From a virus (Duplodnaviria; Caudoviricetes), in the IMG/VR virus record IMGVR_UViG_3300031951_000214, positions 1-54,384 of that record: a stretch of DNA of 54,384 nucleotides. One strand, 5' to 3'. Under the pieces are notes generated by a model. The model made no database searches. It was not told the DNA's origin and saw only the letters and a program-made list of their open reading frames with translations. Position numbers and translations under genes: made by a program. This document shows, piece by piece, positions 23,651 through 51,791 of the stretch. Within the stretch, counting starts at the first letter, position 1. The number at the start of each line of letters is the position of its first letter.

Positions 23651-23684
23651 ATTAGCCTCGTGTAAACAGGGGTGGTTGATCGTA

Positions 23685-24329
23685 TCATGTTGAGAGTGCC
23701 GAGACAAACGAAAGTGTGGCTACCACAGACTGGGTAGACGGCTTGGTTGGCGTACCAGAAGCGTTTAAATGCTGGATGGTTACAGCGGCATCGGTTGGCG
23801 ACCAGTAAATTTCTACATAGTCATTTGCATCCATTTCCAAGAAATAATTCCAGCCAATGATTGAGTGACCGGGTGTACCACCGTGGCTGTTGGGGATTGA
23901 GACAAATCCGGTTGAGCCTGTGATGTCTACGTTATTCTGTTTCAGCCAAATATAAACATCGTGCAGTTGCACGGCTGTGTTCTGGAACTGCGCACTAAAC
24001 TGAAGGTTGTATATACCTGAATTGGCTACTGTAATCTTGGATGTAGCAATCGACACCTCATTGGCAAAATCCGTGGTGTTGAGTGTCATCAGCGTGGCTG
24101 TGTTTGCCGTGGTTGCCTGATCTTGGTCGCTGGAGAATGCCCCGTACGGGAAGCGAATAAACCGCCCGCCGGACTCACCCAAAAGCGCCCCGGTCAGGTT
24201 GTCAAGCTGGTTGAAATACAGGCGCAGGATGTTTGAGTACTGCTCAATAAACTCGGCGTTGTACTCGTTCGGAGCCGCTGGCAGTCGTGGCTGGACGACT
24301 GGGCGATATCGGTTGATGATGGTTGCCAT
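23685..24329 (-). CDS. virion structural protein (C-terminal beta-sandwich)
   Basis: Follows the tail-nozzle gene; N-terminal ILRLYFNQLD helix. Confidence 0.6.
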   Translation of the reverse strand: MATIINRYRPVVQPRLPAAPNEYNAEFIEQYSNILRLYFNQLDNLTGALLGESGGRFIRFPYGAFSSDQDQATTANTATLMTLNTTDFANEVSIATSKITVANSGIYNLQFSAQFQNTAVQLHDVYIWLKQNNVDITGSTGFVSIPNSHGGTPGHSIIGWNYFLEMDANDYVEIYWSPTDAAVTIQHLNASGTPTKPSTQSVVATLSFVSALST

Positions 24330-38200: not shown

Positions 38201-38622
38201 TACACGATCCTTATGAGTGCTGACGTGCTGGTGTTTGCAGGCATCGTCACGGTGAATGAGGTGGTTGATGTTTTGTTGTTGCCAAAGTCAAGGACACAGA
38301 CTGCGCCATTGTCTCCGGCTTTGTAGATCAACGCGCCACGGGCTGTGATCGCGCCTGTCCATGACGGAGAAGAAAAAGTCACGTATGTCACGCTGCCGGA
38401 CGCTGTTGTTTGAGAAGACACTGTAGTGGTGACGATCTCTCCGCCTGCCACGTAGTTACCGCCTGATGCCTCACCAGTGGTTGTGTAGGCTGTGGTTGTC
38501 TCGTCCAATGTTGCATCGTTGGTGTACAGAGCCAGTCGGAACGTATCCGAGGTCAAGTTAATTGACCCGTTTGCCAGCCCTGCCCGCAGCGTATTGCAAG
38601 AGAAGTTGCCTTGAAAAGCCAT
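38200..38622 (-). CDS. virion structural protein
   Basis: DTFRLALY...TTAYTTTGE...YVAGG...ARGALIY...VLDFG. Confidence 0.75.
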   Translation of the reverse strand: MAFQGNFSCNTLRAGLANGSINLTSDTFRLALYTNDATLDETTTAYTTTGEASGGNYVAGGEIVTTTVSSQTTASGSVTYVTFSSPSWTGAITARGALIYKAGDNGAVCVLDFGNNKTSTTSFTVTMPANTSTSALIRIV

Positions 38623-39338
38623 CAGGTCACCGCCTGTCTAAACTGTCCTGACCTGTAAGCGTCTTGACGCTCCATGCCATCGCCCAGACGTTTCGCCAAC
38701 GCAAGTGCTTCTTTGAACTTGGTGTCGTACAACGTGATGATGTCTTGCTCACCTTTCATAAAAGTGTAAGCCTCTACCAATGAGCCATACAGCAAAACGG
38801 AATCAAAGTTGTCCCCCAACCATGTTGTGGTCGCGGTGGTGATGGATTCTGGGTAGTAATAGTAGTGAAGCTCAACGTAATACGCCGCATCAGGCGTTGG
38901 GCCAAGGATAATTGACAATTCGTTGGTGATCGCAGAACTGACAATCGTCGGGCCAAACAACGCGTAGTATTTTGGAACACCTTTGTCGTTTGGCGCAGGG
39001 TACGCCTGACGGATGAAATTCACATCCTTGTTGAGTAAATACTCAAACGTGCCAGTGTCCAAATCACCACCAACAACACCTGTCACCAATGCCAACGAAT
39101 ACACAGACAAAAAGTCATTTGGCAAAGACACGTACTTATTGCTTGACGTGATCGCTGTGTACTGATTCTTGCGAAGCGACGGGAACTGAACCGAGTTGTA
39201 AATGCGCTGCTCAGCCTGCTGAATGAACCGATTGATCTGAGCGGTTGAATTCTCAGTCGATCCATCAGCAAGGTATACAGGGGGAAACTGATTCTCCGTG
39301 TATGACTGAATTGCAATTACAAGCTGGCTGTAGTTCAC
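38622..39338 (-). CDS. head-tail adaptor / tail tubular protein A-like
   Basis: FIQQAEQRI, GxPKYYA, GPTPD, LLYGSLVEA. Confidence 0.7.
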   Translation of the reverse strand: MNYSQLVIAIQSYTENQFPPVYLADGSTENSTAQINRFIQQAEQRIYNSVQFPSLRKNQYTAITSSNKYVSLPNDFLSVYSLALVTGVVGGDLDTGTFEYLLNKDVNFIRQAYPAPNDKGVPKYYALFGPTIVSSAITNELSIILGPTPDAAYYVELHYYYYPESITTATTTWLGDNFDSVLLYGSLVEAYTFMKGEQDIITLYDTKFKEALALAKRLGDGMERQDAYRSGQFRQAVT

Positions 39339-39535
39339 GCCATTGGCCCCCGCGCCATCACGCCTTTAGTAGCCGCGCCAGTGCCACGGATTTTGATACC
39401 AGTGGTTTTGGTGGGCTTGTAGTCATTGCTGTGAGCATTTGCCTCAGAGACGTTTAGGTCTTTCATGTATTTTTTATTGTCAGCCTCACCAACAACAACG
39501 CTTGGAACTATTTTTGGTTTTTTGTAATCAACCAT
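39335..39535 (-). CDS. small basic protein
   Basis: C-terminal IRGTGAATKG..ARGPMA; GGAGG RBS. Confidence 0.7.
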   Translation of the reverse strand: MVDYKKPKIVPSVVVGEADNKKYMKDLNVSEANAHSNDYKPTKTTGIKIRGTGAATKGVMARGPMA

Positions 39536-39536
39536 C

Positions 39537-39701
39537 TTAGCCTCCGCGACCAGAAGAGCGTTGGTTCATGACCTTCGCCATGTTGCGACCATACTTGAGC
39601 ATGTTGGCGTTTGTTTTGCCGCCAGCCGCCATTTTGTGCATACGCTTTTCGTGGGACTTAACTGCTTTGCCCGCGATCTTTTTTACCTGCTTCGTGTCCA
39701 T
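39537..39701 (-). CDS. small basic protein (54 aa)
   Basis: Read by hand as MDTKQVKK...HEKRMHKMAAGGKT...GRGG*; AGGAG RBS. Confidence 0.7.
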   Translation of the reverse strand: MDTKQVKKIAGKAVKSHEKRMHKMAAGGKTNANMLKYGRNMAKVMNQRSSGRGG

Positions 39702-39711
39702 GTTTAAACTC

Positions 39712-40137
39712 CTAAGTTACGCTTACCGTGACTGTACCAAGTTCCACCGCTAAAACCAAATTATTTGGAGTCAAAGCAGCATCAAAAAACGCTGCCCCAC
39801 CCACTGGGTTCCAGCCCCACTGAAAGATTCGACTACCACCCTCCACTGTCCCAGTACCCAATGGGCCTGTACCAGTTGGGACAATCTGCAACCCGCTTGT
39901 TCCTGACAACACATAGCTGCGGTCAGGACGAGGATTCCTTAAAGCCTGTGGGTCGTCCACCGGGAACATACCCAACTGCAACTGCGGTTGATCAGGATCC
40001 CAGCAAGCCGGGCAAACCAACAGGTTGTAGTTCTTGGTCTTGATGATCTCCGTCTTCAAGATGTTGAGCTTGAACCGCTGATCGCAGCGATCACACTGCG
40101 CAATCGCGTGCTTACCACTGGCAAACCTGTTGCCCAC
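39712..40137 (-). CDS. conserved phage zinc-binding protein
   Basis: CDRC...VCPACWD..QPQ...DPQAL..PRPD. Confidence 0.75.
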   Translation of the reverse strand: MGNRFASGKHAIAQCDRCDQRFKLNILKTEIIKTKNYNLLVCPACWDPDQPQLQLGMFPVDDPQALRNPRPDRSYVLSGTSGLQIVPTGTGPLGTGTVEGGSRIFQWGWNPVGGAAFFDAALTPNNLVLAVELGTVTVSVT

Positions 40138-40139
40138 TG

Positions 40140-41066
40140 TTACCTCCCAATGTAGGTTTGGCGGGGAACAAGCCTCAAGGCAGCTTTCTCATGGTCTTCG
40201 TACGCCGCAAGCTCCCAAGCCTCGTCATACTGCTGTTTCAGGAAGCCAAGACGTTCTGCGCCAGTGGGGATCTTTCCGGCGATGTAATACGACAACCCCG
40301 CTGCCATACAAGGCAGGAAGCGGAAAGGAACGTCCATGACGTTTACACCCCCACCAGCGTCTTGGGTGCGGCGTAGACGCCAATACACCAATTGGTAGGT
40401 CTGTGCGTTGTCCGGTGTGGGCCAGACGGTTACAGCGGGAACCTGCTCCCAATACACGGTCGCATTGTCCGCATGGCTTGCCGCCGTGGTGTTTTGCTGC
40501 CCACGGAAGCAGTTGTACAGGACATTCCCGTCAATGTATCCATAGTTGATGATCTCATTGTCAATCTTGACAAACCCGGCGGCTGGAAGCCCCACCACGG
40601 AGTCCAACGTAATCTGGGTAACTGTGCTGTTAATTGCACCGTCTAGGGTTAACCCTGTCGTTGATGTTTGTCCGTTGTAGCGTTGAATCCAAATCTGGAT
40701 TGGTCTGGCTTGCGTGATCTTGTTGGGGATCGTCGCATAAGTAGAAACGCTGATGCGGGTGATGGTCAGATCAGCCTGAGTTGAGGCGATGTTTCCGCCA
40801 GTACGGATGACATGCTCCAACAGGTCAATGGTGTCGTTGGGTAGAGGGTAGGTGTTCTGACCCTGAACCAAGTCAATTGTGCCAGTCTCAATTGTCCACA
40901 GATTGATGCCACGGTTGGCCCAATCAGCAAACATGATGTTTAAACTGCGTCTGGCTGTACGTAGGTCATACCCGGTACGCAACTCACCACCGGCGCGTTC
41001 AAACGCTTCCTCGACCAACTCGGTGAGGTCTAGGTTAAAGCTTGATGCACCAGAGGTATTTGCCAT
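40140..41066 (-). CDS. head-tail connector / tubular protein A-like with inserted beta domain
   Basis: ARRSLN..FADWANRG.NLW, WPTPD, DVPFRFLP. Confidence 0.7.
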   Translation of the reverse strand: MANTSGASSFNLDLTELVEEAFERAGGELRTGYDLRTARRSLNIMFADWANRGINLWTIETGTIDLVQGQNTYPLPNDTIDLLEHVIRTGGNIASTQADLTITRISVSTYATIPNKITQARPIQIWIQRYNGQTSTTGLTLDGAINSTVTQITLDSVVGLPAAGFVKIDNEIINYGYIDGNVLYNCFRGQQNTTAASHADNATVYWEQVPAVTVWPTPDNAQTYQLVYWRLRRTQDAGGGVNVMDVPFRFLPCMAAGLSYYIAGKIPTGAERLGFLKQQYDEAWELAAYEDHEKAALRLVPRQTYIGR

Positions 41067-41305
41067 TATCTAAACCCTGCCGTTTTCTTTGCAATGTTCT
41101 TTGGTTGTGCCACAAACTGTTTGCCCTTGGCTTTGCCCGCCCGCTTTGCACGGGTTGTAGCGGCATACTCCGCTGGGCTTAGACTTTTGATCGCGGCCTC
41201 TGGGAGATACCGCTCACCCGTTTTGGATGAGGGTTTACCCGACTTGGTTCGCCATTTCTGGTCGCCCCAAGATTTAAGGGATTGTTGCGGTGCTTTAAGA
41301 GACAT
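41066..41305 (-). CDS. DUF5872-like protein, C-terminal part
   Basis: QQSLKSW..QKWRTK...ERYLP...GKQFV. Confidence 0.65.
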   Translation of the reverse strand: MSLKAPQQSLKSWGDQKWRTKSGKPSSKTGERYLPEAAIKSLSPAEYAATTRAKRAGKAKGKQFVAQPKNIAKKTAGFR

Positions 41306-41762
41306 TTTCTACCTCTTGTATTTTGGCAGAGATTAAATAGTCTTTTGCTTTTTGTAGCAAATGCTCACTGTCCCCCAATAACCCAAGCCCACGATTGCAA
41401 TTTGGGCAAAGTAGCCCACGAACTCTTCCTGTAACATGGTCATGGTCAATACACAACCAGCTAAATTTTTCTTCTGGCTCACTGCAAATTGCGCAGCAGC
41501 CATGTTGGGCTTCATACAAAACATCGTACATTTCTTGAGTTGCCCCTCGACGTTTGAGTCGTCGATTTGCTACCACCCAATTTTTTCTACGCCAATCATT
41601 GATATGGTCTCTATTTTGTACAGCCCATTCTTGCCGTTTGGCCTGCATACACAGCTTACATTGCGACTTATGTAGATGTGACAATTTACCGCCACGGCTA
41701 AAAAACTCCGTCAAAGGTTTTTCTTGTTTACATCCAGTACAAGTTTTAATCACGATAGCCAC
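41295..41762 (-). CDS. endonuclease VII-family nuclease (probable free-standing homing endonuclease)
   Basis: Q.GCCAIC...IDHDH.TGRVRGLLC..CNRGLG plus N-terminal CxxC pairs. Confidence 0.9.
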   Translation of the reverse strand: MAIVIKTCTGCKQEKPLTEFFSRGGKLSHLHKSQCKLCMQAKRQEWAVQNRDHINDWRRKNWVVANRRLKRRGATQEMYDVLYEAQHGCCAICSEPEEKFSWLCIDHDHVTGRVRGLLCPNCNRGLGLLGDSEHLLQKAKDYLISAKIQEVENVS

Positions 41763-42024
41763 CGCCTGCTGCTTTATATTTTTTAGCTACAAGTTGACTT
41801 TTTCTTGCCGACCACTGACCTGCGCCAGTACCATGTGTTGCTGCTGATTTGACCTGAGCCACGATCCGCTTGCGCAGGCTAGGCTTGGTGTAGTTGCCAG
41901 CGGCGTTGACCTTACCGCCCTCTGCATACATGTCTACGTCTTGCGGCTTGTCTTTACGACGGACAGCCTTCTTCCCCGGCATCTTCTTCGGGTTGATTGC
42001 GCCCATACCGCGAGAGGCCATCAT
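41746..42024 (-). CDS. DUF5872-like protein, N-terminal part
   Basis: NYTKPSLR...GQWSARKSQL....YK..GGGY. Confidence 0.7.
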   Translation of the reverse strand: MMASRGMGAINPKKMPGKKAVRRKDKPQDVDMYAEGGKVNAAGNYTKPSLRKRIVAQVKSAATHGTGAGQWSARKSQLVAKKYKAAGGGYRD

Positions 42025-42437
42025 CAGATCATCTTCCCACGGGTTTTGCCTTTGACAGCGCAGCCATCAGCACGGCTGGAAGCAGTCATACCGCCCTTGG
42101 CGAATCCTTTACCCATCTCCGTCTTGGTGGTGGGTGCAGTCTTCATCTTCTTGCGCATCTCTTCATCTTTTGCTTCTTCCATAGACTGCTTTTGACCGGG
42201 GGTCATTGAGTCTTCTTTGCCGCGAGATTCGCGCTTTATTTCAGCGGCGGCTTCACGTCTATCTTTGTTACCAGCTTCTTGAGCTATTTCAATTTGTTTT
42301 TTCTTTATAAAACCCATACCCCCCAAACCCACCGCTGGGGGTATATAAGCTAGTGGAGATAACTTACCACTACCGCCGCCAGACCCACCACCCTCAAGTG
42401 GGTTCAAGTCGGTGTAGTGCCTTGAATGTTTTCCCAT
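42024..42437 (-). CDS. basic protein with C-terminal 'FAKGG...RADGCAVKGKT' tag
   Basis: GAGGT RBS; shared tag. Confidence 0.7.
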   Translation of the reverse strand: MGKHSRHYTDLNPLEGGGSGGGSGKLSPLAYIPPAVGLGGMGFIKKKQIEIAQEAGNKDRREAAAEIKRESRGKEDSMTPGQKQSMEEAKDEEMRKKMKTAPTTKTEMGKGFAKGGMTASSRADGCAVKGKTRGKMI

Positions 42438-42445
42438 GATTTACC

Positions 42446-43564
42446 TCAATACATTTTGCAACGGGTTTTGCCGCGAGATGCAATACCATCACCACGACGA
42501 GAAGCGGTCATGCCGCCAGAAGCCATTTTGACTGCGCCACCACGCTTAAAGTCTGAACCCGGTTTAAAATTCATAAAAGGGTCTTTAGAATTACGTTTTG
42601 CTTCAGCGGCAGCGGCGCGGGCTTCAGCGGCGGCGGCGCGGGCTTCAGCTTGTGCAATTTTATCCATACCCTTGGGGCCAGCAGCCCAAGCGTTTGGATT
42701 GGTCACAGTCGCATTTCTGCCGGGAAAAGCAACATTACGAACTTCTTCCATGTCTTTTATACGCTGACCTGCGGCACTCAAAACGTCTTCACCCTTGCCT
42801 GCTTGTTTAGCAGTAGTACGATTGGCTAAGTTTTTTGCTAGGCTTGCAGCTGTTTTGTAGCCACCGCCGGGAGTTAAGAGCTGTTCTGGGTATACAGGTT
42901 CAGCGGCTTGCAACTCTGGGTTAGCTTTTAACCTTTTCATCTTGGCGTCATAAGCTGCCTGAGCACGGGAACGGTTCTTCATCTCATCTGTAGAAATTGA
43001 AGCTTTGCGGGCATCTGTTTTTCTAGCTTGCGATTCTGCCTTTGATTTAAGGTTAGCTACTTTTGCCGCATCAAGATTTCGTTGATACGCTCGAAAATCA
43101 GCTTTGTTACTAGCTATATCTTTTTTATCTTTTGCTGCTTGCTTGGCTTTATCTTCAGGAGTTTGATTTAATATTGTTTTTGCTTCAGCTTGAGTCATAT
43201 CTTTATCTGAGCGTAGTACACCCTTAGACTGACTAGGGTCACCATGTTTAACTTCTTTAGCAGGTTCATCAGCTTTTGGAAGGTCTTCAGCCTTTACTTC
43301 CCGTTTATCTACCGGAGCAGGTTTAGGTTCAATTTTAATTTCTGGCTTTTTGTAGCCTTCATTACTGTAATCTTCGTCTTTTGCAGCTTCAGCTTTTTTA
43401 GCACCAGACACGGCTTCTCTTTGCGCGTCTGTTCGGGCTTTAGACGATTTTTCTTCGTCATCAGTTGCAGAGGGGCCTTTTGCGTCCTTACCTTTGGACA
43501 TCATGTAGGCCGCAGCACCCAGTGCAGCAAGCCCAGCTAACCTTCCAGCGCTTTTCTTTGCCAT
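42446..43564 (-). CDS. Lys/Ala-rich low-complexity protein with C-terminal tag
   Basis: AAGGAG RBS; ends MASGG...RGDGIASRGKTRCKMY. Confidence 0.75.
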   Translation of the reverse strand: MAKKSAGRLAGLAALGAAAYMMSKGKDAKGPSATDDEEKSSKARTDAQREAVSGAKKAEAAKDEDYSNEGYKKPEIKIEPKPAPVDKREVKAEDLPKADEPAKEVKHGDPSQSKGVLRSDKDMTQAEAKTILNQTPEDKAKQAAKDKKDIASNKADFRAYQRNLDAAKVANLKSKAESQARKTDARKASISTDEMKNRSRAQAAYDAKMKRLKANPELQAAEPVYPEQLLTPGGGYKTAASLAKNLANRTTAKQAGKGEDVLSAAGQRIKDMEEVRNVAFPGRNATVTNPNAWAAGPKGMDKIAQAEARAAAAEARAAAAEAKRNSKDPFMNFKPGSDFKRGGAVKMASGGMTASRRGDGIASRGKTRCKMY

Positions 43565-43574
43565 GATTTACTCC

Positions 43575-44066
43575 TTAGCAGGTTTTGCCGCCCATTTTCA
43601 TGCCCAGTGGCTTAGAACCAGACATCTTGACTTGTGCGCCCTTGGTTTTGCCTTTGGCAGCGACACCATCGCGGCTTGGAGCGGCGGTCTTTACAGTACC
43701 CATTTTGGCTTTGGTGATACCACCGTTGGCCATTTTTTTCATACCAGCTTCTTTCATCTCATGCTTGACCATAGACTTAGGTGCGCCCTTAGCCTTCATG
43801 AAGCTGACCTCTTTTTTGACCATCGCTTTAGATTCTTTCATTTCGCCACCCTTGTTAAAAAGTTCGCTCTTACCTTGATTAGTCTTTGGCTTGTTGACCG
43901 CTTGCGCGTCAGCACGGCTTTTTGTGCCTTTGCCAAATTTCATACCCTTGCTGGCTTCGCTGAAATCCTTGCCCACTGATTTGGGGACTCCAACCTTCTT
44001 CGCAAACGCTGGGTTGTGAGCCACAGCATCCATGAATTTCTTTTGTTTAAGACTTGTTGCTGGCAT
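43575..44066 (-). CDS. Lys/Met-rich basic protein with tag motif
   Basis: Repeated xxGG motifs; RDGVAAKGKTKG. Confidence 0.75.
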   Translation of the reverse strand: MPATSLKQKKFMDAVAHNPAFAKKVGVPKSVGKDFSEASKGMKFGKGTKSRADAQAVNKPKTNQGKSELFNKGGEMKESKAMVKKEVSFMKAKGAPKSMVKHEMKEAGMKKMANGGITKAKMGTVKTAAPSRDGVAAKGKTKGAQVKMSGSKPLGMKMGGKTC

Positions 44067-44305
44067 CACTTCCCCGCTTGAATAAGCTGGTCAATTTTTG
44101 CTTCAAGGCGGTTAAACCGCTGGTCAATGTGGTCAGTAATTCTCTGAACCTCTGCGTTAGTTGCGTAATCACGGGCAATCTCCTCGCGTGTGATGTTGAG
44201 CAGGCGCTCAATACGTTTGACATCTTCGAACTTTTCGCGGATAAAAAACCACAATGCCCCCATGATGAGGGACAGTGCGGCAGACCAGATTGTTGCGATG
44301 TCCAT
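44066..44305 (-). CDS. small membrane-anchored coiled-coil protein
   Basis: N-terminal TM; RFNRLEAKID. Confidence 0.7.
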   Translation of the reverse strand: MDIATIWSAALSLIMGALWFFIREKFEDVKRIERLLNITREEIARDYATNAEVQRITDHIDQRFNRLEAKIDQLIQAGK

Positions 44306-44628
44306 CAGATCATCCTACCCTTGGTCTTACCTTTGACGGCACAGCCATCAGCACTGCTGACGTATCCACCATCTGCGCAGTTCCACGCACGAAGGCTCTT
44401 GTTAATCCTTGAATCCGGATCGTTTGCGGTCTTGGCGCTGGTCAACTTCGCTTTCATGCCTTTCATACGGGCGCAGAAAGAGTCGCGGCGACTGCCGCCG
44501 TGTGGCTGAGGCGGTTTTAATCCGGGTTTCCCCGGATTTGCTGCGTTGTAGGAAGCTCGTCCTTTGGCGTTCAAGCCGCCCTTCTCGGACTTTCCTTCCT
44601 TCCTCTGCCATGCGGGGGACTTAGCCAT
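44305..44628 (-). CDS. DUF6321-like basic protein with appended tag
   Basis: AWQRKEGK..GGLN.KGR...RR.SFCARM...SLRAWNC, then ADGG..SADGCAVKGKTKG. Confidence 0.7.
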   Translation of the reverse strand: MAKSPAWQRKEGKSEKGGLNAKGRASYNAANPGKPGLKPPQPHGGSRRDSFCARMKGMKAKLTSAKTANDPDSRINKSLRAWNCADGGYVSSADGCAVKGKTKGRMI

Positions 44629-44902
44629 ACACAATCGTCACGCCTGTGATATTAGTCACATCAACGTAAACGCCTGTGGCAAACAAAATTCCTTCGCCGG
44701 GGATGGGTAGAAGAAACGTGTTTGCCGTGCCTGCGGGGGTGTCAATTTCAAGCTTCAGTGTGCCTGAAGTACTCGTTCCATCATAGAACTTAACCGACCC
44801 TGCGCTTGCCCCCGCAAGACCATATACAGCTTTTACACGGACACGGTAGTCAACCGCTTGTCCGTCTGCCGTTAGTCGCGTTGACTGGACATCATATTGC
44901 AT
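44621..44902 (-). CDS. small virion protein
   Basis: IPGEGILFATGVYV; GGAGG RBS. Confidence 0.7.
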   Translation of the reverse strand: MQYDVQSTRLTADGQAVDYRVRVKAVYGLAGASAGSVKFYDGTSTSGTLKLEIDTPAGTANTFLLPIPGEGILFATGVYVDVTNITGVTIVYG

Positions 44903-44915: not shown

Positions 44916-45449
44916 TTAGGAATTTGCAAACGGTGTGGCAACAGTACCAGAACCAAGCAAAACACCTGTGACATAGTACTTCAAAGAAGCCAAAACAGTC
45001 ACGGTAATCCAAGAACCTGCTGCTCCACCAGTGGTAGTGCCGTCCAAGTTAATGACATCATTTGCTGCTGCGGGAGCATAACCAGTGGTTGCACCAGAAG
45101 CATCGGTTGCTACCAATAGCAGCGAGCCAACAAATTTATCTGTGCCGTCAGTTTTGATAGCCACGGCAGTTGCGGCGGTTTCTACAAAAAATGTGTAGGT
45201 CGTGCCAACATTGTTCAGAGTATTAGGGTCTTGACCGGGGCCGCTAGAAGTAGGGTTTGCTGTTGCGTTGATGGTTGGCAGGGTAATAATCAAAGTCGCA
45301 TCGTTGGTGCGAATTACCTTACCTGCGTATGTGGCAACATCAAGCGTAACGGTGTTTGTGCCGTTGGCAAGATTAACAACTGTATTTGGGCCTTGGGAAT
45401 AGAAGCCAGCCATTGAACGGACTGGGCCTTGAAACGTAGTGCGAGCCAT
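44916..45449 (-). CDS. virion structural/decoration protein
   Basis: Start MARTTFQGPV at 45449 after TAAGGA. Confidence 0.7.
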   Translation of the reverse strand: MARTTFQGPVRSMAGFYSQGPNTVVNLANGTNTVTLDVATYAGKVIRTNDATLIITLPTINATANPTSSGPGQDPNTLNNVGTTYTFFVETAATAVAIKTDGTDKFVGSLLLVATDASGATTGYAPAAANDVINLDGTTTGGAAGSWITVTVLASLKYYVTGVLLGSGTVATPFANS

Positions 45450-45454
45450 GTTTT

Positions 45455-45535
45455 TTTCCTTACATGCAAGTGGAGGTGTATCAATCTGCATGTCGTCAGC
45501 CGGGACTGTTTGATACACCGGAGAACCCCGGAATG
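45455..45535 (-). ncRNA. structured pseudoknotted RNA downstream of capsid gene (candidate Mu-gpT-DE-type motif)
   Basis: 10-bp stem 45475-45484/45510-45519, with two further pairings from its loop. Confidence 0.6.
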
Positions 45536-45550
45536 GTTGCAATATACACC

Positions 45551-45580
45551 AAAAGAAAAGGGGGCACAAGGCCCCCTTTC
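45551..45580 (-). terminator. intrinsic terminator after major capsid gene
   Basis: aaagggggc-cttgt-gccccctttt followed by ctttt on the - strand. Confidence 0.85.
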
Positions 45581-45587: not shown

Positions 45588-46499
45588 TCAGGCAGTGCCT
45601 GAAGAACCAAACATACCCAGAGGGTCAGACCAGCCGAAGCTGTAACGCTCACGGGCCTTGTAACGCACGTTGCCGGTATCGAAGTCGCCGTCCATGCTGT
45701 TAGACAGCGGAGTACGAACGAAGTGCTTCAGACCGTTTGGCACGTCTGTAGTCAAGAACCAAGCGTTGGTGTCTGTCAAGAAGTGGTTGACAGTGTAGCC
45801 GCCGGGAATTGCGCCCATTTGCTTGATGGCGTTGATGTCGTTGTCCGCTGTAGACACACGCAGTTCGGTGTCTAACAAACGTTTAGCGACAAACATCAAG
45901 TTTGGAGGAACAATCATCTTGACAGGCTTGGCTGCAATCAACAAACCACGCTCATCAGTCCAAGCAGCGATCTGGATAACGGCGGCTTCCAAAGAAGTCT
46001 CGTTCAAATCAACTTGGGTAGAGGGAGTGTTGCTGTTGACACCGCCAGTAATCAAGGGGTGGCTGGTATTAAACAAAGACACGCCGTCGCCACCGGGGTA
46101 GCTAGAGCTAAAGCCATTGTTCAGGACGGCAGCAGCCTTGACCTGTTTGGTGTAAGCCATAGCGCGAGCCAATGACTTGGTGTAACGAGACGACAAGCTG
46201 TCGTACAAGTTATCTTCAATCGCTTCTTCAGTGATTGAGAAACCCAAGGCGATGGTTTCGTGCGTATAGCGGGTTGACCATGCCTCTTGTGCATTGTCAT
46301 AAGCGATGGCAGAACCTTCGTTTTTGACTGGTGCAGCAGAAAAGCCGGACAGTTTGGTTTCTTCTTCAAAAGAACGCTCAGAAGTCTCAGTTTCGTAGAT
46401 TTCTTTGTGTTCTTCACCGTAGCGAGCATACTCCATACCGAACAAAGCGTTCAATCCGGGGAGCAACTCTTTCAGCAGTTGTGCGCGTGAAATAGCCAT
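45588..46499 (-). CDS. major capsid protein (HK97 fold, Mu gpT-like)
   Basis: MAISRAQLLKELLPGL, GGDGVSLF..SHP, NHFLTD..AWF, RYKARERYSFG.SD. Confidence 0.9.
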   Translation of the reverse strand: MAISRAQLLKELLPGLNALFGMEYARYGEEHKEIYETETSERSFEEETKLSGFSAAPVKNEGSAIAYDNAQEAWSTRYTHETIALGFSITEEAIEDNLYDSLSSRYTKSLARAMAYTKQVKAAAVLNNGFSSSYPGGDGVSLFNTSHPLITGGVNSNTPSTQVDLNETSLEAAVIQIAAWTDERGLLIAAKPVKMIVPPNLMFVAKRLLDTELRVSTADNDINAIKQMGAIPGGYTVNHFLTDTNAWFLTTDVPNGLKHFVRTPLSNSMDGDFDTGNVRYKARERYSFGWSDPLGMFGSSGTA

Positions 46500-47665: not shown

Positions 47666-48667
47666 TTAAGCACCTTTTCTAAGTAAAGCAACCTGTCTTG
47701 CATATTCTTCAATAGGCACCCCAAGACGTCGCGCTTGCGCGGCTTCTGATGCCTTTAACCGAATACGGTTAGGTGGTGTACTCCGCGAGGCTGGAGCCAC
47801 TGGCGAAGTAATTCGTGTTGCACGGCGCGGCGGATCGTAATCATCCTCGTCAACCGGTTCTGACGTTCTTTTCTTTGGAGGCGGTTCGTCATCCTCATAG
47901 CTCTGTTCACTCTCAAAGTGCTCAGGAAATCGTTTGCGCATCGTTTTGTCGATGGTTTTGAAGTACTCTTCAGTACCTACATAGTCCGCACCATACTCTT
48001 TCTGCAACTTTCTGTCAATACCCATTGCAGCCATAGTCATCTCGTCGTCTACGCCCCACCAATCGCTGTTGTTTTCCACCCATTTTTTAGTACGGGGAGA
48101 TACTCTTGGAGCCTCATCAACTTCGCGTGCGGGAGCCTGAAACTCTCTGTCCTCATTCTTGATTGGCTTCATGCTCTCGGCACGATCAATCTTCAAAGTG
48201 GCCCTAGCAATTGCCTCTTGTGCCTGTACAATTGCATCAGGATCAGCAGCTTCGTACGCTTTCTTGTACTTCTCTTTGGCGGCGTCCAATTCAATTTGAG
48301 CAGACGATTTTGACTGCTCAATATAGGCTTCGCTGCCTGTAGAAAGTTGTTGCTGAAGTCGCTTGTTTTCTTCAAGAATTTGTTTTGCGTAGGCTTCAGT
48401 TGCTTCGCGTTCCCGCAGAGCCTGCTCCTTCGCACGGCGTTCATCGTGATAGCCACGGGTGAACTTCTTAATACGTTTTTGAACCTTCTCGTCGTAGGAG
48501 GCTAACTCTTCGTCAGTTACTTCTTCGACTGGTTCTTTCATGGGTTTACGCCCACGGTCTTCAGGAGGAGTATCGTCTTCGATCTCGATCTCAAGTTTCT
48601 CTTCAGCAGTTTTCTTGCCTTCTACTTCATCTGGAAACTCGTATGTGTCGTCAAATTTTGTTGCCAT
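47666..48667 (-). CDS. capsid scaffolding protein
   Basis: Acidic coiled coil; C-terminal 'ARRLGVPIEEYARQ'. Confidence 0.7.
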   Translation of the reverse strand: MATKFDDTYEFPDEVEGKKTAEEKLEIEIEDDTPPEDRGRKPMKEPVEEVTDEELASYDEKVQKRIKKFTRGYHDERRAKEQALREREATEAYAKQILEENKRLQQQLSTGSEAYIEQSKSSAQIELDAAKEKYKKAYEAADPDAIVQAQEAIARATLKIDRAESMKPIKNEDREFQAPAREVDEAPRVSPRTKKWVENNSDWWGVDDEMTMAAMGIDRKLQKEYGADYVGTEEYFKTIDKTMRKRFPEHFESEQSYEDDEPPPKKRTSEPVDEDDYDPPRRATRITSPVAPASRSTPPNRIRLKASEAAQARRLGVPIEEYARQVALLRKGA

Positions 48668-49088: not shown

Positions 49089-49278
49089 CAGCTTTCTCCA
49101 TTTTTTGCACAAGGTCTTCAATGATGTTTTCTGCAAAGTTCAAACCTTGGATAACTCCGCAGATTCTTCGGTACTCTTCAAAAGTGTCGCATCGACCAGC
49201 AGCTGCGTAAGCTTCACGCTCTTGTTTCAGCTTTTGAATCTCTTTGACTATGAGAGCCAACAGTTTGTAGTCGCTCAA
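49081..49278 (-). CDS. small conserved protein between portal and GroES
   Basis: G....FEEYR..CG.IQGL; TTG start after AAGGAG. Confidence 0.75.
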   Translation of the reverse strand: MSDYKLLALIVKEIQKLKQEREAYAAAGRCDTFEEYRRICGVIQGLNFAENIIEDLVQKMEKADE

Positions 49279-51791
49279 TCTTTCTCCTTCTTAGGTGGTT
49301 GCTGAGATTTTTGACCGGTGTTTTGAGCAGCGCGATGAGCTGCTTGTTGCACGGCCATTTGCGCCTTGTGTTTTGCAACATCAATGCCCAAACGTGCACC
49401 CTCAATTTCTGATTGACGAGTGGCTTTGTCTTTTGCAGCGGCTGCTGTAGCCGCGACCTGCATAGCAGCGATCTCTTTTTGAGCCGCGATACGTGCTTCC
49501 TCGACGCGAATCTGATCTGCTTTGGCGGCAGCATCAATTTGTTGCTTTTGTTGTTTCAACTGCAACTCGCCCTGTTTAATCTGCAACTCTTGCATCTGCA
49601 TCTGAACAATCGGGTCCTGCATCTGCTGTTGGGCTTTCTGTTGTTGAGCCTCTTGTTGGTTCTGCTGCAACAACTGCGTAGACGCTTGAGCCGCCATCAC
49701 AGCAATTTTGTCAGCCAACTCTGGAGCAACTTGTTTGTTTTGCTCTTCCGAAGGCAGTGTTACGCCCATCGTCATCTCAACTTGTTTACGATACTCAAAC
49801 GCAATGTGTTCGTTGATGTGAGCCATCGCTGAGGCCATGATCTGCTGCGCCATCGGATTCATCGCCATCAACTGCTGAATCTTCGGGTCTTGTATCGCGG
49901 CCATGTGTACAGCGATATGCGCCTGATGGTTCTGCTCCATGAACGCTTTGACCGGCTTCATAGTCAGCAACGCTTGGTTCTCAGACACGGGGTCAACAGG
50001 TATGGCGTCGTCTTCTGTTTTGACCAACTTGTTCGCGTTCTTCACACCCAAGACCTCAATCATCTGACGGTGTAAGAGAGATAAGTCATACAACTGGGGA
50101 GCCTGTTGCGCCAACTGCATCACTGCTTGGTACTGCACAATCTTTTGTGCCATTGTTGCTGCGTTGGGGTCACTCACAGGAATGACGTCCACTTTCTCGT
50201 AGTCTGATTTACGAGCAGCGCGGCTACCTTCTTCTGGTTCGTAATCGTAGTCTTCTGGGGCGTAGTCAGCGATGATGACCTTGAGGAGTTTGAACTCCTG
50301 TTTCATGGTGAAGTGCATACGAGCCTGCACAGCACCCATCACTTTAAGAGTACGCTCAAGCAGAGCCAATGTTGTACCCACTGGAGCTTGTGCCGACATG
50401 TCGGACACATTCATATCTCCTGATGAGGCAAACGCTCTGCCTTCTTCTACGATGTTTTGGAACAGGCCAAACAGAACCTGACTTGGCTCTTTGTATGGCA
50501 GAGGGAGAATGTTGTCCCTGATTGAACCACTTGGGACGTCTACGTCTCTGAACTCTCCGGGTTGGATGGGCGTGTCGTCGCCTTTGATGCGAAGACCGCG
50601 AGACTTGAGGCCCCCGGGTAGGTTTGAAAGTGTTCCCGCATCCACGAGCTGGCGGATGAGCATCGTCGCGCTCTTTGCGTATCCTCCGATAAGGTGGATA
50701 AGACCATAACCATAGAATCCAAAACCGGGGATGTATTGGTAGTGAACGAAGTGTTGGCGTTTGAGTTGGAGTTCATCGTCTTCATACCAATTTCTCCTGA
50801 TGGCCAACACTGTACCAGTCTGTTTTTCAAGCGTGACAACATAAGGCAGAGCAATACCTGTTGGCTTACCCTTCTTATCAGTGTGTTCAAAGCCGGGCAA
50901 ATCTAAGTCAACATGCATCTCAAGGATACGATATCTGTCGTCTTGAGTAGCTGACATCCCGTTCTCTTCGGCTTTTTGCTTCTCAATGTCGTCCAACTCA
51001 TAGCCGGGTTCACCCAACTCTACATCAGCGTAAAAACCTGCATTCTGGAGTCGAAGAATCTCGTTCTCAGTCTTACGCATCACATGAGTAACACGTTCTG
51101 CTGTCTCTAAACTTGTGGCTCCATAAGGCACTACGATGTCTTCAGCAGGAATAAATACTGCTGCTTGACGACCTCTGCTTGGGTCGTAATAAACTTTTTT
51201 GAACGCAGAACCAGCCAAAGGTAGATTCCACAACATCTTCTCATGCTCTGGTCGGTACTCGACCATCACCTCAGTCAGCTGGTAGTTCATGTCCTCCTGC
51301 ACGCGCGCGGCTGCGTCTTCTGCTTCAGGGGTGTCTCTGCCAATAATTTTCGTCTTCACAGGCCCCATCGCGGGGAACGTCTCGGTGATGCCTTCTGACT
51401 GAAACCGCACTACTGACTCTGTGAGCATCGGGTGAAACACACCACACGCCCCCTGCCAAGGCTCTGTTCTTTCCTCATACTTCAAGCCCAACAGCTTTAG
51501 TCCATCAACGTATGTTTTGATCCAGTCTTTGCGGTCTTGGGTGTCTTTATCAAAGTCATCAATCAATTCAGAACTGAGCATGGCCAAATCTTTGTCGTCC
51601 ATATACTCAGCAAGATTGGCATCAAACGTATCGGCTGTTTCTTTTTGTGGTTTGAGATCAATCTCAATGTCACCCATGCCGATACTCACCGACTCAGGGT
51701 CTTCGATCTCAATCTCAATGTCCGGCGCACCCTCTGGAATGAGTTCTTCAAGTCCTTGAGGAGCTGCGTATAAGCCTTTACTGATCGCCAT
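49275..51791 (-). CDS. portal protein
   Basis: 838 aa after TerL; GSAFKKVYYD, GFYGYGL, LVDAGTLSN, Gln-rich barrel-like tail. Confidence 0.9.
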   Translation of the reverse strand: MAISKGLYAAPQGLEELIPEGAPDIEIEIEDPESVSIGMGDIEIDLKPQKETADTFDANLAEYMDDKDLAMLSSELIDDFDKDTQDRKDWIKTYVDGLKLLGLKYEERTEPWQGACGVFHPMLTESVVRFQSEGITETFPAMGPVKTKIIGRDTPEAEDAAARVQEDMNYQLTEVMVEYRPEHEKMLWNLPLAGSAFKKVYYDPSRGRQAAVFIPAEDIVVPYGATSLETAERVTHVMRKTENEILRLQNAGFYADVELGEPGYELDDIEKQKAEENGMSATQDDRYRILEMHVDLDLPGFEHTDKKGKPTGIALPYVVTLEKQTGTVLAIRRNWYEDDELQLKRQHFVHYQYIPGFGFYGYGLIHLIGGYAKSATMLIRQLVDAGTLSNLPGGLKSRGLRIKGDDTPIQPGEFRDVDVPSGSIRDNILPLPYKEPSQVLFGLFQNIVEEGRAFASSGDMNVSDMSAQAPVGTTLALLERTLKVMGAVQARMHFTMKQEFKLLKVIIADYAPEDYDYEPEEGSRAARKSDYEKVDVIPVSDPNAATMAQKIVQYQAVMQLAQQAPQLYDLSLLHRQMIEVLGVKNANKLVKTEDDAIPVDPVSENQALLTMKPVKAFMEQNHQAHIAVHMAAIQDPKIQQLMAMNPMAQQIMASAMAHINEHIAFEYRKQVEMTMGVTLPSEEQNKQVAPELADKIAVMAAQASTQLLQQNQQEAQQQKAQQQMQDPIVQMQMQELQIKQGELQLKQQKQQIDAAAKADQIRVEEARIAAQKEIAAMQVAATAAAAKDKATRQSEIEGARLGIDVAKHKAQMAVQQAAHRAAQNTGQKSQQPPKKEKD

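What the first reader, a model, noticed from the sequence alone, without database searches (positions are those of the whole stretch)
39335..44628. Unrelated basic proteins share a 'GG...DGxAxKGKT' tag: candidate capsid cargo-loading system
Seen: four proteins with different bodies carry nearly the same motif at or near the C-terminus: SSADGCAVKGKTKGRMI (44305), SRDGVAAKGKTKGAQV (43575), RRGDGIASRGKTRCKMY (42446) and SRADGCAVKGKTRGKMI (42024). Each is preceded by an [FMC]-A/K-x-GG box (CADGG, MANGG, FKRGG/MASGG, FAKGG). Weaker versions occur at 41746 (SRGMGAI, YAEGG), 39537 (MAAGG) and 39335 (RGTGAATKG). In the DUF6321-like protein the tag follows what looks like the natural domain end (WNC), as if appended. 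All lie downstream of the capsid gene. Inference: a portable peptide signal, analogous to the T4 internal-protein capsid targeting sequence, that loads DNA-binding or anti-host cargo into heads, with xxGG possibly a processing site.
Basis: partly seen in the sequence, partly recalled or inferred. Interest (0 to 1): 0.85.

Follow-up and report, generated by a model that had tools for sequence, protein, structure and literature searches.

The report
Shared tail peptide on phage head-module proteins
Four otherwise unrelated small, basic phage proteins encoded just after the capsid gene end in the same ~28-residue peptide, which is widespread in one abundant uncultured phage lineage and probably docks these proteins inside the phage head, though no experiment has tested this.

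Summary
The string [DG]GxAx[KR]GKT occurs four times in the six-frame translation of the window. All four lie at or near the C-termini of four neighbouring minus-strand genes downstream of the capsid gene. A profile of the tag scores them at E 1e-14 to 4e-4.

The tag is about 28 residues: a Φ-x-x-G-G box, a 9-residue spacer, then ADG[C/I]AxKGKT[K/R]G[R/K]ΦΦ-end. No Pfam, NCBIfam or PHROG model covers it, and the motif strings are not in the searched papers.

It marks 8,393 representative proteins of 1.84 billion. In the close capsid relatives sampled, tag genes always lie 0.7-5.9 kb downstream of the capsid gene, on its strand, 1-5 per genome. Bodies are basic, disordered and hypervariable. 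Two bodies (DUF6321, a phiKZ-type N-domain) exist widely without the tag, so it is portable.

Best reading (about 0.4): a docking peptide that loads or anchors polycationic internal proteins in the head, like the T4 capsid targeting sequence or encapsulin cargo peptides. This is untested.

Not supported: "anti-host cargo" and "xxGG processing site".

Unexplained: a single cysteine that moves between alternative tag positions.

The parts
45588..46499 (-). Major capsid protein (303 aa, no cysteine). It is the upstream landmark of the tag genes.
   Evidence: Pfam Phage_capsid_4 9.4e-15 and Mu-like_gpT. PHROG major head protein. 73% identity to the Pag-Yong1/MinM2 capsid protein. Cysteine count.
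44305..44628 (-). 107-aa protein: a DUF6321 body plus an appended tag (tag about 44308-44379, CADGG...KGKTKGRMI). The ORF can also be read from a TTG at 44634.
   Evidence: Pfam DUF6321 residues 14-84, E 6.6e-19. Tag HMM E 1.5e-14. Relatives without the tag end at WNC*/WRC*. AlphaFold2 gives the tag pLDDT <50.
44066..44305 (-). 79-aa protein with an N-terminal hydrophobic segment, then a charged segment that looks like a coiled coil by eye. It has no tag and lies among the tag genes.
   Evidence: Sequence. Matches phrog_7885 and phrog_462. Homologue in DSL-LC04.
43575..44069 (-). 164-aa basic protein. N-terminal domain (residues 2-44) of phrog_16759 type, a K/M/G-rich body, then the long-form tag (about 43578-43733: MANGG...SRDGVAAKGKTKGAQVKM...MKMGGKTC).
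   Evidence: PHROG hits. tblastn matches residues 2-44 only, in 111 phage records. Tag HMM E 4e-4. Single Cys as the last residue.
42446..43564 (-). 372-aa basic K/A/E-rich protein with an N-terminal hydrophobic segment and a C-terminal tag (about 42449-42550: FKRGGAVKMASGGMTASRRGDGIASRGKTRCKMY).
   Evidence: No Pfam or PHROG family. Tag HMM E 9.1e-14. Single Cys, inside the tag. Body cluster of 10 related sequences in relatives.
42024..42437 (-). 137-aa basic, disordered protein with a C-terminal tag (about 42027-42104: FAKGGMTASSRADGCAVKGKTRGKMI).
   Evidence: No family. Tag HMM E 1.1e-14. Single Cys, inside the tag. The ESM Atlas holds a model of this protein with mean pLDDT 0.59 and pTM 0.24, and its nearest clusters are 100% viral hypothetical proteins.
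41746..42024 (-). 92-aa basic protein (phrog_17747). It has an N-terminal SRGMGAI string and one YAEGG box, but no tag core.
   Evidence: PHROG 9.2e-22. Tag HMM E 0.43, GG-box part only.
41066..41305 (-). 79-aa basic protein (phrog_14910), without a tag. It belongs to the same run of small basic head-module genes.
   Evidence: PHROG 1.6e-37. Net charge +15.
39537..39701 (-). 54-aa basic protein. It has a MAAGG box followed by GGKTNxxMLKxGRxxAKVxNQ, a module that in some relatives follows an N-terminal copy of the tag.
   Evidence: Sequence. Compare L023, L068 and L131 and L261, L271 and L234. Tag HMM E 0.87.
39335..39535 (-). 66-aa protein ending RGTGAATKGVMARGPMA*. This is a separate conserved C-terminal motif with a tag-like skeleton (R-x-x-G-x-A-x-K-G).
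   Evidence: The regex RGxGAAx[KR]G near a stop gave 38 distinct C-terminal variants in the fetched loci, most of them of this RGTGAATKG type. Not hit by the tag HMM.
38622..41066 (-). Downstream boundary of the tag region: two SU10-adaptor-like genes (40140-41066 and 38622-39338) and a zinc-ribbon-like 141-aa gene (39712-40137).
   Evidence: Pfam SU10_adaptor 1.4e-07 and 6.2e-24.

Best explanation
The tag is a portable short linear motif of about 28 residues: Φ-[AK]-x-G-G, a 9-residue Ser/Ala-rich spacer, then [KR]-R-A-D-G-[C/I]-A-x-[KR]-G-K-T-[KR]-G-[RK]-Φ-Φ at the C-terminus. It is carried by 1-5 small, strongly basic, intrinsically disordered proteins per genome. These are encoded between the capsid/cement genes and the head-tail adaptor genes of an abundant uncultured podovirus-like lineage.

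Most likely it is a docking peptide. It would bind one conserved component of the procapsid interior (capsid protein, scaffold or portal), so that the polycationic proteins are built into the head before DNA is packaged. There they would stay with the DNA as counter-ions or tethers, and perhaps be ejected with it.

Shown: the motif, its portability, its terminal position, purifying selection on it, its strict head-module synteny, and its restriction to one capsid clade with variant tags in sister clades.

Inferred: presence in the virion, the docking function, and the partner.
For: 1. Portability.
- DUF6321 bodies occur tag-less in 280 named phage records; 0 of 280 matches run through the tag.
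- They also occur tag-less in sister-clade loci that end at WNC*/WRC*.
- The N-domain of the 164-aa protein matches residues 2-44 only, in 111 phage records.
- One relative carries DUF6496.

2. The tag is the constrained part.
- Mean pairwise identity is 0.64 for the 17-residue core and 0.20 for bodies.
- 100 bodies from genomes whose capsid proteins are 84-99% identical fall into 48 blastp clusters, 37 of them singletons.
- Synonymous differences separate the window's four tag DNAs.

3. Terminal position.
- The tag ends exactly at the C-terminus in 117 of 136 representative proteins, and within 12 residues in the other 19.

4. Synteny.
- 110 of 110 tag ORFs in 80 capsid-relative loci are on the capsid gene's strand, 683-5,857 bases downstream, and none is upstream.
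- 28 of 29 loci with at least 4.5 kb of downstream DNA have 1-5 tag ORFs.

5. Clade specificity.
- 12 of 13 long tag-bearing contigs have a capsid protein 76-88% identical to the window's.
- The tag HMM finds 189 ORFs in 79 of 146 window-like loci.
- It finds 0 ORFs in the 80 CRP-901-like loci, 1 in the 80 HTVC023P-like loci and 2 in the 80 RW-like loci; those listed match mainly the GG-box part.

6. Different clades use different shared tags.
- L455 has two different bodies ending ..GG..V.RG.G.AR.QK..IC*.
- L253 has two ending ENYNDQVKRKFGGGKL*.
- This is what a co-evolving phage-encoded receptor would produce.

7. Disorder.
- The tag has pLDDT <50 beside a helical body.
- Bodies carry net charge +10 to +27 and are 66-68% disorder-promoting residues.

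8. Precedent.

9. Weak annotation hints that two of the bodies are virion proteins.
- The DUF6321 protein is annotated 'virion protein' in S-SCSM1.
- The N-domain alone is annotated 'structural protein' in Eowyn.
- Two PHROGs that match the N-domain are annotated 'virion structural protein'.
- These are depositors' labels and were not checked.
Against: - No direct evidence places any tag protein in a virion. The one named phage group that carries the tag (Pag-Yong1, and MinM2/Pra-JY27 with the same top-hit capsid scores) does not appear in the searched papers: none of the listed papers holds Pag-Yong1, and the MinM2 hits are unrelated medical papers.
- Many tag proteins have almost no 'cargo' (48-80 aa). 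Some are two tags in tandem (P0241, 73 aa; P0257, 70 aa). That fits a functional binding unit better than a mere address label.
- No gene is found only in the tag-bearing genomes compared; the core head genes are shared by tag-positive and tag-negative lineages, so no candidate receptor stands out.
- Within the window-like clade, tags of one genome are not more alike than tags of different genomes: 0.584 against 0.564, with 312 of 2,000 permutations reaching the difference. The co-evolution argument therefore rests on two anecdotal sister-clade loci. In L253 the shared tag is nearly identical at the DNA level, so recent conversion could explain it.
- The capsid protein has no cysteine, so the tag's cysteine cannot bond to it.
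Confidence: 0.4

Rival explanations
1. The tag is itself the working part, not an address. It would be a basic, glycine-rich mini-module that binds DNA or another polyanion, or that cross-links to other tags through its single thiol. The proteins would then be protamine- or histone-like condensers of phage DNA, and the bodies mere spacers.
For: - Tandem two-tag mini-proteins and very short bodies exist.
- The tag is rich in K/R/G, and whole proteins carry net charge +10 to +27.
- Cysteine is 0.16% of body residues (24 of 15,348) but 4.1% of tail residues. 136 of 159 tag ORFs have a Cys in the tag or its short extension.
- In 216 short-form tails, Cys at core position 3 and Cys as the last residue almost exclude each other: 2 have both, 139 only the first, 25 only the last, 50 neither. 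Fisher p = 3e-11, not corrected for relatedness.
- The window's tags contain the string GxxxxGKT.
Against: - Non-specific DNA binding would not need a near-invariant 20-residue sequence such as SSASKRADGCA.
- The GK[ST] lysine is replaced by H or R in relatives (KGHTKG, RGRTKG, QGHTKG), so this is not a Walker A loop.
- 23 of 159 tag ORFs have no Cys in the tag or its extension, and 50 of 216 short-form tails have none at the two positions counted. The thiol is therefore not essential for every copy.
- DNA-bound proteins are not expected to pass the portal with the DNA (general knowledge). An incorporation signal would still be needed if they act inside the head.
Confidence: 0.25
2. The tag anchors the disordered basic proteins to the outside of the capsid, or to the head-tail connector, as decoration or cement rather than as internal proteins.
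For: - The genes follow the cement-like and Ig-like small head genes (44916-45569 and 44621-44902) and precede the adaptor genes.
- Synteny with the capsid gene is strict.
Against: - Lys-rich disordered chains exposed on the virion surface would be open to proteases and would tend to stick to surfaces (inference).
- The composition resembles known internal, DNA-associated proteins.
- Copy number per genome is variable, 0-5, which is unlike the fixed lattice sites that cement proteins occupy.
Confidence: 0.1
3. There is no portable signal. The four genes are fast-diverging paralogues of one duplicated gene family, and the tag is simply the only segment still under constraint.
For: - The genes are tandem and co-oriented.
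- Bodies share composition (K, A, G, M, S rich) and mini-motifs such as repeated ΦxxGG boxes.
- L140 carries a 248-aa gene with an internal partial copy of the tag, which suggests local duplication.
Against: - DUF6321, DUF6496 and the phrog_16759-type domain are independent families found widely without the tag.
- Sister-clade orthologues of DUF6321 lack the tag.
- In L455 the orthologous N-domain protein carries a different tag, the one its genome-mate also carries.
- In L253 a tag is shared at the DNA level (49 of 52 bases) between otherwise unrelated genes.
Confidence: 0.1
4. The tag is read by a host machine. It would be a C-terminal degron or chaperone/unfoldase recognition signal (basic residues followed by a hydrophobic end), or the ΦxxGG box would be a protease site, timing the turnover or processing of late proteins.
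For: - The tag sits at the extreme C-terminus and ends basic-then-hydrophobic (..KGRMV..GKIC).
- The resemblance to the basic, hydrophobic-ended C-terminal signals that ClpX recognises (MuA-type) is recalled from memory and was not tested.
Against: - The conserved stretch is far longer than known degrons.
- The tag is confined to one phage clade. In prokaryote genomes it was found only on 18 MAG contigs of disparate taxa, several of phage-genome size, so there is no host-side pattern.
- No protease family is found in the window.
- The ΦxxGG spacing differs by one residue from the adenovirus protease site recalled from memory.
Confidence: 0.07

Closest known systems
T4 capsid targeting sequence (CTS) of the internal proteins IPI, IPII, IPIII and Alt
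   Same: A short conserved peptide is the only thing shared by otherwise diverse, mostly basic small proteins, and it directs them into the prohead (PMC3012670, passages read). Several such genes occur per genome. The bodies evolve fast.
   Different: The T4 CTS is N-terminal and is removed by the prohead protease; that detail is recalled, not taken from the passages read. Here the tag is C-terminal, longer (about 28 aa), unrelated in phage type, and no prohead protease was found. The bodies here are mostly low-complexity rather than folded inhibitors.
Encapsulin cargo-loading (targeting) peptides
   Same: Both are short, disordered, C-terminal peptides preceded by a flexible Gly-rich linker, on unrelated cargo proteins encoded next to an HK97-fold shell gene. 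Encapsulins have a dedicated cargo-loading mechanism (PMC8346489, abstract seen).
   Different: Encapsulins are cellular compartments holding enzymes. The encapsulin consensus, recalled from memory, is unlike this tag. Here the shell is a DNA-filled phage head and the 'cargo' is polycationic filler. Binding to the shell has not been shown.
phiX174 protein J and adenovirus core proteins VII/mu (recalled from memory, no call)
   Same: These are small, highly basic DNA-neutralising virion proteins. In J, a basic DNA-binding part is joined to a conserved C-terminal part that lodges in the coat protein's inner surface.
   Different: These are unrelated viruses with different packaging routes. No sequence similarity was tested. 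The analogy is a lead only.
P22 scaffolding protein C-terminal coat-binding domain (recalled from memory, no call)
   Same: A basic C-terminal element binds the inner face of an HK97-fold coat protein and can carry fused cargo into procapsids.
   Different: It is a folded helix-turn-helix on one dedicated scaffold protein that exits the procapsid. Here a disordered peptide sits on several proteins, and the phage has a separate acidic scaffold-like protein (47666-48667).

Membership tests
T4-type capsid targeting sequence | Short targeting peptide at the N-terminus of the internal protein | tested here: not met
   The tag ends at the C-terminus in 117 of 136 representatives and within 12 residues in the other 19. 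A few relatives carry it at the N-terminus (L023, L068, L131).
T4-type capsid targeting sequence | Removed by a prohead protease encoded in the head module | tested here: not met
   No protease family was found by Pfam or PHROGs among the proteins from 13417 to 53863. The only 'protease' PHROG hits fall on the capsid protein itself, to fused protease-capsid families. Whether cleavage occurs cannot be tested here.
T4-type capsid targeting sequence | Diverse bodies that share only the targeting peptide, several genes per genome | tested here: met
   48 body clusters among 100 bodies. 1-5 tag genes per locus.
Encapsulin cargo-loading peptide | C-terminal disordered peptide on cargo encoded beside an HK97-fold shell gene | tested here: met
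   C-terminal position. pLDDT <50. Located 0.7-5.9 kb downstream of a Phage_capsid_4/Mu gpT-type capsid gene.
Encapsulin cargo-loading peptide | Peptide binds a pocket on the inner face of the shell protein | not testable with these tools
   It needs a structure or a binding assay. No solved structure matches the tag or this capsid protein by sequence.
Encapsulin cargo-loading peptide | Shell is a DNA-free cellular nanocompartment with enzyme cargo | tested here: not met
   The window is a phage genome with terminase, portal and tail genes. 100 of 110 tag proteins have no Pfam domain.
Walker A / P-loop NTPase | GxxxxGK[ST] with an invariant lysine, set between a beta-strand and a helix of a folded domain | tested here: not met
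   The string is present in the window. The lysine is H or R in relatives. The motif lies 4-5 residues from the C-terminus and is predicted to be coil.
Pfam DUF6321 (body of the 107-aa protein only) | Match above Pfam's gathering score | tested here: met
   68.8 bits against a cut-off of 28.5, residues 14-84. The tag lies outside the domain.
Double-glycine leader peptide / peptidase C39 system | N-terminal leader ending in GG, with a C39 peptidase-ABC transporter nearby | tested here: not met
   The conserved GG box lies 23-27 residues from the C-terminus, and only 45 of 334 proteins have a box in their first 16 residues. No C39 or ABC family is found in the window.

The most novel reading that the evidence does not exclude
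Tailed phages of this abundant lineage use a clade-specific C-terminal cargo-loading peptide that co-evolves with its partner, a phage counterpart of encapsulin targeting peptides. It loads a fast-evolving set of polycationic, DNA-neutralising proteins into the head. A single movable cysteine in the tag then locks them in place, by disulfide or metal bridging, once the particle meets oxidising water. The tag would be a natural, transferable handle for packing foreign proteins into HK97-fold phage capsids.
Probability: 0.25. Interest if true: 0.8.

Novelty: new variant of a known kind. Interest (0 to 1): 0.6.

Why it matters
How short-tailed phages get internal proteins into the head is known in detail for very few systems: the T4 capsid targeting sequence, and the still poorly understood P22 ejection proteins.

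Here a sharply defined, unannotated peptide marks at least 8,393 protein clusters. The lineage's capsid gene is itself extremely common in metagenomes: 8,000 of 8,000 scored candidates had E <= 1e-10.

If the tag is a loading signal, three things follow.
- It gives a directly testable rule for which proteins are packaged in uncultured phages.
- It gives a way to predict virion content from sequence.
- It offers a candidate tag for loading foreign proteins into phage capsids.

If instead it is a DNA-binding or cross-linking unit, it points to protein counter-ions as a general solution for packing 55-66 kb genomes.

In either case, the many 'hypothetical proteins' that carry it could be given a common label.

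Tried and rejected
1. Complex prediction of the capsid protein (alignment A6, 90 rows) with the 40-residue tag (A1): verdict 'no answer', score 0.00 in both runs, controls not folded. Only a capsid monomer was offered. Scaffold, portal, capsomers and tag-tag pairs were not tried because the cap is one job.

2. AlphaFold2 of the capsid protein with the shallow alignment A4 gave a poor model (mean pLDDT 46). No fold search was run on it.

3. tblastn of the 137-aa protein and of a 31-residue tag against 50,697 phage records gave no match. The likely cause is the low-complexity filter, so absence of the tag from named phages is shown only for six records searched with the profile and for DUF6321 homologues.

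4. Pfam at E <= 10 on the tag regions gave only chance-level hits. NCBIfam gave none. The profile against Protein Data Bank sequences gave only E 0.57 to a flavoprotein.

5. Walker A reading: rejected.

6. A conserved DNA or RNA element rather than a peptide: rejected, because the tag DNAs differ at synonymous sites.

7. A receptor gene present only in tag-bearing genomes: none found among 19 head-module queries against 7 tag-negative and 13 tag-positive loci.

8. Within-genome homogenisation of tags in the window-like clade: not significant.

9. Host assignment from prokaryote genomes: 18 true tags, all on MAG contigs of disparate taxa, several of phage-genome size. These are probably mis-binned phage contigs. 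Two further hits were chance.

10. Literature. DUF6321: 0 papers. The three motif strings: 3 unrelated papers. None of the listed papers holds Pag-Yong1, and the MinM2 hits are unrelated medical papers. The passages of the HTVC023P-type paper that hold 'structural' or 'capsid' say nothing on these proteins. Supplements were not consulted.

Full report
**What the window is.** The window is a complete virus record of 54,384 bases. Replication genes lie on the plus strand: family A DNA polymerase, an SNF2-type helicase, a PD-(D/E)XK nuclease and a DUF927 primase-helicase-like protein. A long minus-strand late operon holds, in order:
- large terminase, 51801-53318;
- portal, 49275-51791;
- GroES-like protein;
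- an acidic 333-aa scaffold-like protein;
- the major capsid protein, 45588-46499;
- a cement-like protein;
- a run of small basic genes;
- two SU10-type adaptor genes;
- tail, lysis and very large genes.

The capsid protein is 73% identical to that of Synechococcus phage MinM2 and Planktothrix phages Pag-Yong1 and Pra-JY27. It is 63-66% identical to the HTVC023P-type pelagiphages and phage DSL-LC04, and 54% identical to the Roseobacter phages CRP-901/902.

In the six-frame translation of the whole window, [DG]GxAx[KR]GKT occurs exactly four times. All four are on the minus strand, in three frames, at or near the C-termini of four neighbouring genes:
- 44305-44628, 107 aa;
- 43575-44069, 164 aa;
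- 42446-43564, 372 aa;
- 42024-42437, 137 aa.

A profile of 52 C-terminal 40-mers (A1), which includes the window's three short-form tags, scores the four at E 1e-14 to 4e-4. The next-best window ORFs score E 0.43 and 0.87 and match only the GG-box part. The four tag DNAs are 65% identical and differ at synonymous sites. The conservation is therefore of the peptide, not of a DNA or RNA element or a recent repeat.

The 54-aa ORF shares other mini-modules with tag proteins of relatives. The 66-aa ORF ends in a separately conserved motif, K.RGTGAATKG.MARGPMA*. A regex for RGxGAAx[KR]G near a stop found 38 distinct C-terminal variants in the fetched loci, most of this type, and the skeleton resembles the tag.

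**How common the tag is.**
These gave 161 distinct ORFs.
- An exhaustive HMMER pass over 1.84 billion cluster representatives gave 8,393 proteins at E <= 0.001 and 1,366 at E <= 1e-10.
- In 596 billion bases of prokaryote genomes the pattern hit only 20 places. Of these, 18 are true tags, all on MAG contigs of disparate taxa and several of phage-genome size; 2 are chance. The tag is therefore essentially viral.
- No Pfam, NCBIfam or PHROG model covers it. No chain in the Protein Data Bank matches it. The motif strings are absent from the searched literature.

**Anatomy of the tag.** From 334 distinct short-form tails the consensus is M/Y-K/A-K-G-G-K/S-V-S-S-A-S-K-R-A-D-G-C/I-A-x-K/R-G-K-T-K/R-G-R/K-M/F/I-V/C-end. 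D, G, G and T of the core were required by the selection pattern. Outside the selected core, R at -15 is 90%, A at -14 is 89% and S at -17 is 88%. The spacer from GG to DG is 9 residues in 208 of 334 tails.

A second, longer form (..KMGAVKTAAPSRDGVAxKGKTKGTMVKM..GGKAC-end) goes with the 164-aa type of body.

The tag ends exactly at the C-terminus in 117 of 136 representatives and within 12 residues in the rest. A few relatives carry it at the N-terminus, and some small proteins are two tags in tandem.

AlphaFold2 on an alignment of DUF6321-plus-tag proteins gives a helical body (pLDDT about 51-82) and a coil tag with pLDDT <50.

**An odd feature: one movable cysteine.** Cysteine is almost absent from bodies (24 of 15,348 residues) but makes up 4.1% of tail residues. 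Of 159 tag ORFs, 136 have a Cys in the tag or its short extension and 86 end in Cys.

Among 216 distinct short-form tails, Cys at core position 3 and Cys as the last residue nearly exclude each other: 2 have both, 139 only position 3, 25 only the last residue, 50 neither. Fisher p = 3e-11, not corrected for relatedness. The window's 372-aa protein shows a third placement (..GKTRCKMY).

The 164-, 372- and 137-aa window proteins each have exactly one Cys, in the tag or its extension; the DUF6321 protein also has Cys in its body. The capsid protein has none. I have no tested explanation for this.

**Portability.**
- The body of the 107-aa protein is Pfam DUF6321. This domain occurs in 525 phage records, mostly cyanomyoviruses and pelagiphages, and the matches listed stop at about residue 86.
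- With the C-terminal 51 residues as query, 0 of 280 matching records extend through the tag.
- HTVC104P gp76 ends ...RAWNC*. Sister-clade loci L263 and L277 end at WNC*/WRC*, whereas 12 closer relatives add the 22-23-residue tag.
- The first 44 residues of the 164-aa protein match 111 phage records over that stretch only, including phiKZ ORF 165.1 and a 52-aa Eowyn ORF.
- One relative carries DUF6496.
- Otherwise 100 of 110 tag ORFs have no Pfam domain.

**Selection.**
- Among 80 loci whose capsid proteins are 84-99% identical to the window's, 100 tag-protein bodies of at least 30 aa fall into 48 blastp clusters, 37 of them singletons.
- Mean pairwise identity is 0.64 for the 17-residue tag core and 0.20 for bodies.
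- Bodies are K/A/G/M/S-rich. The window's tag proteins carry net charge +10 to +27 and are about two-thirds disorder-promoting residues.

**Context.**
- In those 80 loci, all 110 tag ORFs are on the capsid gene's strand, 683-5,857 bases downstream, and none is upstream.
- 28 of 29 loci with at least 4.5 kb of downstream DNA have 1-5 tag ORFs. The exception is L172.
- 12 of 13 long tag-bearing contigs have a capsid protein 76-88% identical to the window's. The thirteenth is a fragment with the tag at its very start.

**Distribution across clades.**
- The profile finds the tag in Pag-Yong1 (one copy, a 308-aa Pro/Ala/Arg-rich protein two genes after the capsid gene). It does not find it in HTVC023P, HTVC104P, DSL-LC04 or CRP-901. 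A weak hit in Caulobacter phage RW is not a tag.
- By clade, the profile finds 189 tag ORFs in 79 of 146 window-like loci. It finds none in the 80 CRP-901-like loci, 1 in the 80 HTVC023P-like loci and 2 in the 80 RW-like loci; the non-window hits listed match mainly the GG-box part.
- At 74-82% capsid identity the tag degrades into variants: RGDGICRKGKTKGRMV..QGHTKG....RGRTKG....KGHTKG... This rules out a Walker A reading of GxxxxGKT.

**Other lineages have other shared tags.** In L455, a 62-kb contig from the HTVC023P-like set, a K/M-rich protein and the orthologue of the 164-aa protein's N-domain both end ..GG..V.RG.G.AR.QK..IC*. In L253 (capsid 80% identical) two unrelated basic ORFs both end ENYNDQVKRKFGGGKL*. 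There the DNA is identical at 49 of 52 bases while the upstream DNA is unrelated.

These two cases suggest clade-specific tag versions shared within a genome, and tag transfer by recombination. They are only two cases. Within the window-like clade, tags of one genome are not more alike than tags of different genomes: 0.584 against 0.564, with 312 of 2,000 permutations reaching the difference.

**Most likely mechanism.** The following pattern is the one seen with the T4 capsid targeting sequence, where diverse internal proteins share only the signal that encapsidates them into the scaffolding core (PMC3012670, passages read). It is also the pattern of encapsulin cargo-loading peptides on HK97-fold shells (PMC8346489, abstract seen):
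- a near-invariant, disordered terminal peptide;
- sitting on fast-evolving or independently existing bodies;
- confined to the head module;
- confined to one capsid clade.

I therefore favour a docking peptide that binds a conserved procapsid component, so that polycationic proteins are built into the head before packaging (confidence 0.4).

The reading is not settled, for these reasons:
- the very short bodies and tandem-tag mini-proteins;
- the movable cysteine;
- no gene was found only in the tag-bearing genomes compared.

The main rival is that the tag is itself a DNA-binding or cross-linking unit (0.25). Lesser rivals are an external anchor (0.1), plain paralogy (0.1) and a host-read signal or processing site (0.07).

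No enzyme or inhibitor domains occur on the bodies, and no protease family is found in the window.

**Limits.**
- No tag protein has been seen in a virion. The only hints are depositors' labels on tag-less homologues of two bodies.
- The tblastn filter hid low-complexity queries, so named phages were screened for the tag only in six records and through DUF6321.
- Supplementary files were not consulted.

**Verdict.** This is a real, sharply defined, very widespread and unannotated peptide module. The concept it most resembles is known, so I rate it a new variant of a known kind. Interest is 0.6, and the function remains to be tested.

Noticed in passing
L253:8849-9142 and L253:10193-10540: A relative with an 80% identical capsid protein lacks the KGKT tag. 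Two unrelated basic ORFs there share a different C-terminal peptide, ENYNDQVKRKFGGGKL*. The DNA is identical at 49 of 52 bases while the upstream DNA is unrelated, which looks like a recent tag transfer or conversion.
   Followed up: partly
L455:6686-7102 and L455:7626-8000: On a 62-kb contig from the HTVC023P-like set, a K/M-rich protein and the orthologue of the 164-aa protein's N-domain both end in a variant tag, ..GG..V.RG.G.AR.QK..IC*. It again has a terminal Cys.
   Followed up: partly
window 39335-39535 (-): The 66-aa ORF ends K.RGTGAATKG.MARGPMA*, a separately conserved C-terminal motif. A regex for RGxGAAx[KR]G near a stop found 38 distinct variants in the fetched loci, most of this type; a few are RGxGAAxRGxxFKGV*-like ends. 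Its skeleton resembles the tag core.
   Followed up: partly
tag positions in window 42027-42104, 42449-42550, 43578-43733, 44308-44379: There is one cysteine per tag, sitting at alternative positions (core position 3, the G after KT[KR], or the last residue). The first and last placements nearly exclude each other across 216 tails. The capsid protein has no Cys.
   Followed up: partly
window 41295-41762 (-): An endonuclease VII gene (Pfam 1.1e-21) sits inside the run of small basic head genes. tblastn found a homologue in only 2 of the 20 loci compared, so it may be a mobile insertion.
   Followed up: no
window 19510-21972 and 22394-23707 (-): The 820-aa and 437-aa proteins, which match no Pfam family, also carry ΦxxGG boxes (YADGGEV, MAGGGIV, MASGGISHLGDYSDGG, MAHGG). 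The box may be a wider feature of this phage's late proteins.
   Followed up: no
window 13417-19506 (-): A 2,029-aa protein with a C-terminal LPD38 domain (large polyvalent protein associated domain) lies next to the 820-aa protein. It is possibly an internal or ejected virion protein.
   Followed up: no
window 40140-41066 and 38622-39338 (-): Two SU10-adaptor-like paralogues are separated by a zinc-ribbon-like 141-aa gene and two tiny basic ORFs. Both adaptor-like genes and the zinc-ribbon-like gene were found in most of the 20 loci compared, in tag-positive and tag-negative lineages alike.
   Followed up: partly
P0241 (73 aa), P0257 (70 aa): Some database proteins consist of little more than two tags in tandem.
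   Followed up: no
L286-L305 (genome contigs): Tag genes occur on contigs binned into MAGs of Chitinophagales, Microbacteriaceae, Sericytochromatia, Methylopumilus, Cyanobium and others. Several contigs are 50-62 kb. These are probably phage contigs mis-binned into MAGs.
   Followed up: partly
L140:6498-7241: A near-identical relative (capsid 99% identical) has a 248-aa version of the 137-aa gene. It carries an internal partial tag (..GFDKGGMTASSR..) and a complete C-terminal one, which suggests internal duplication.
   Followed up: no
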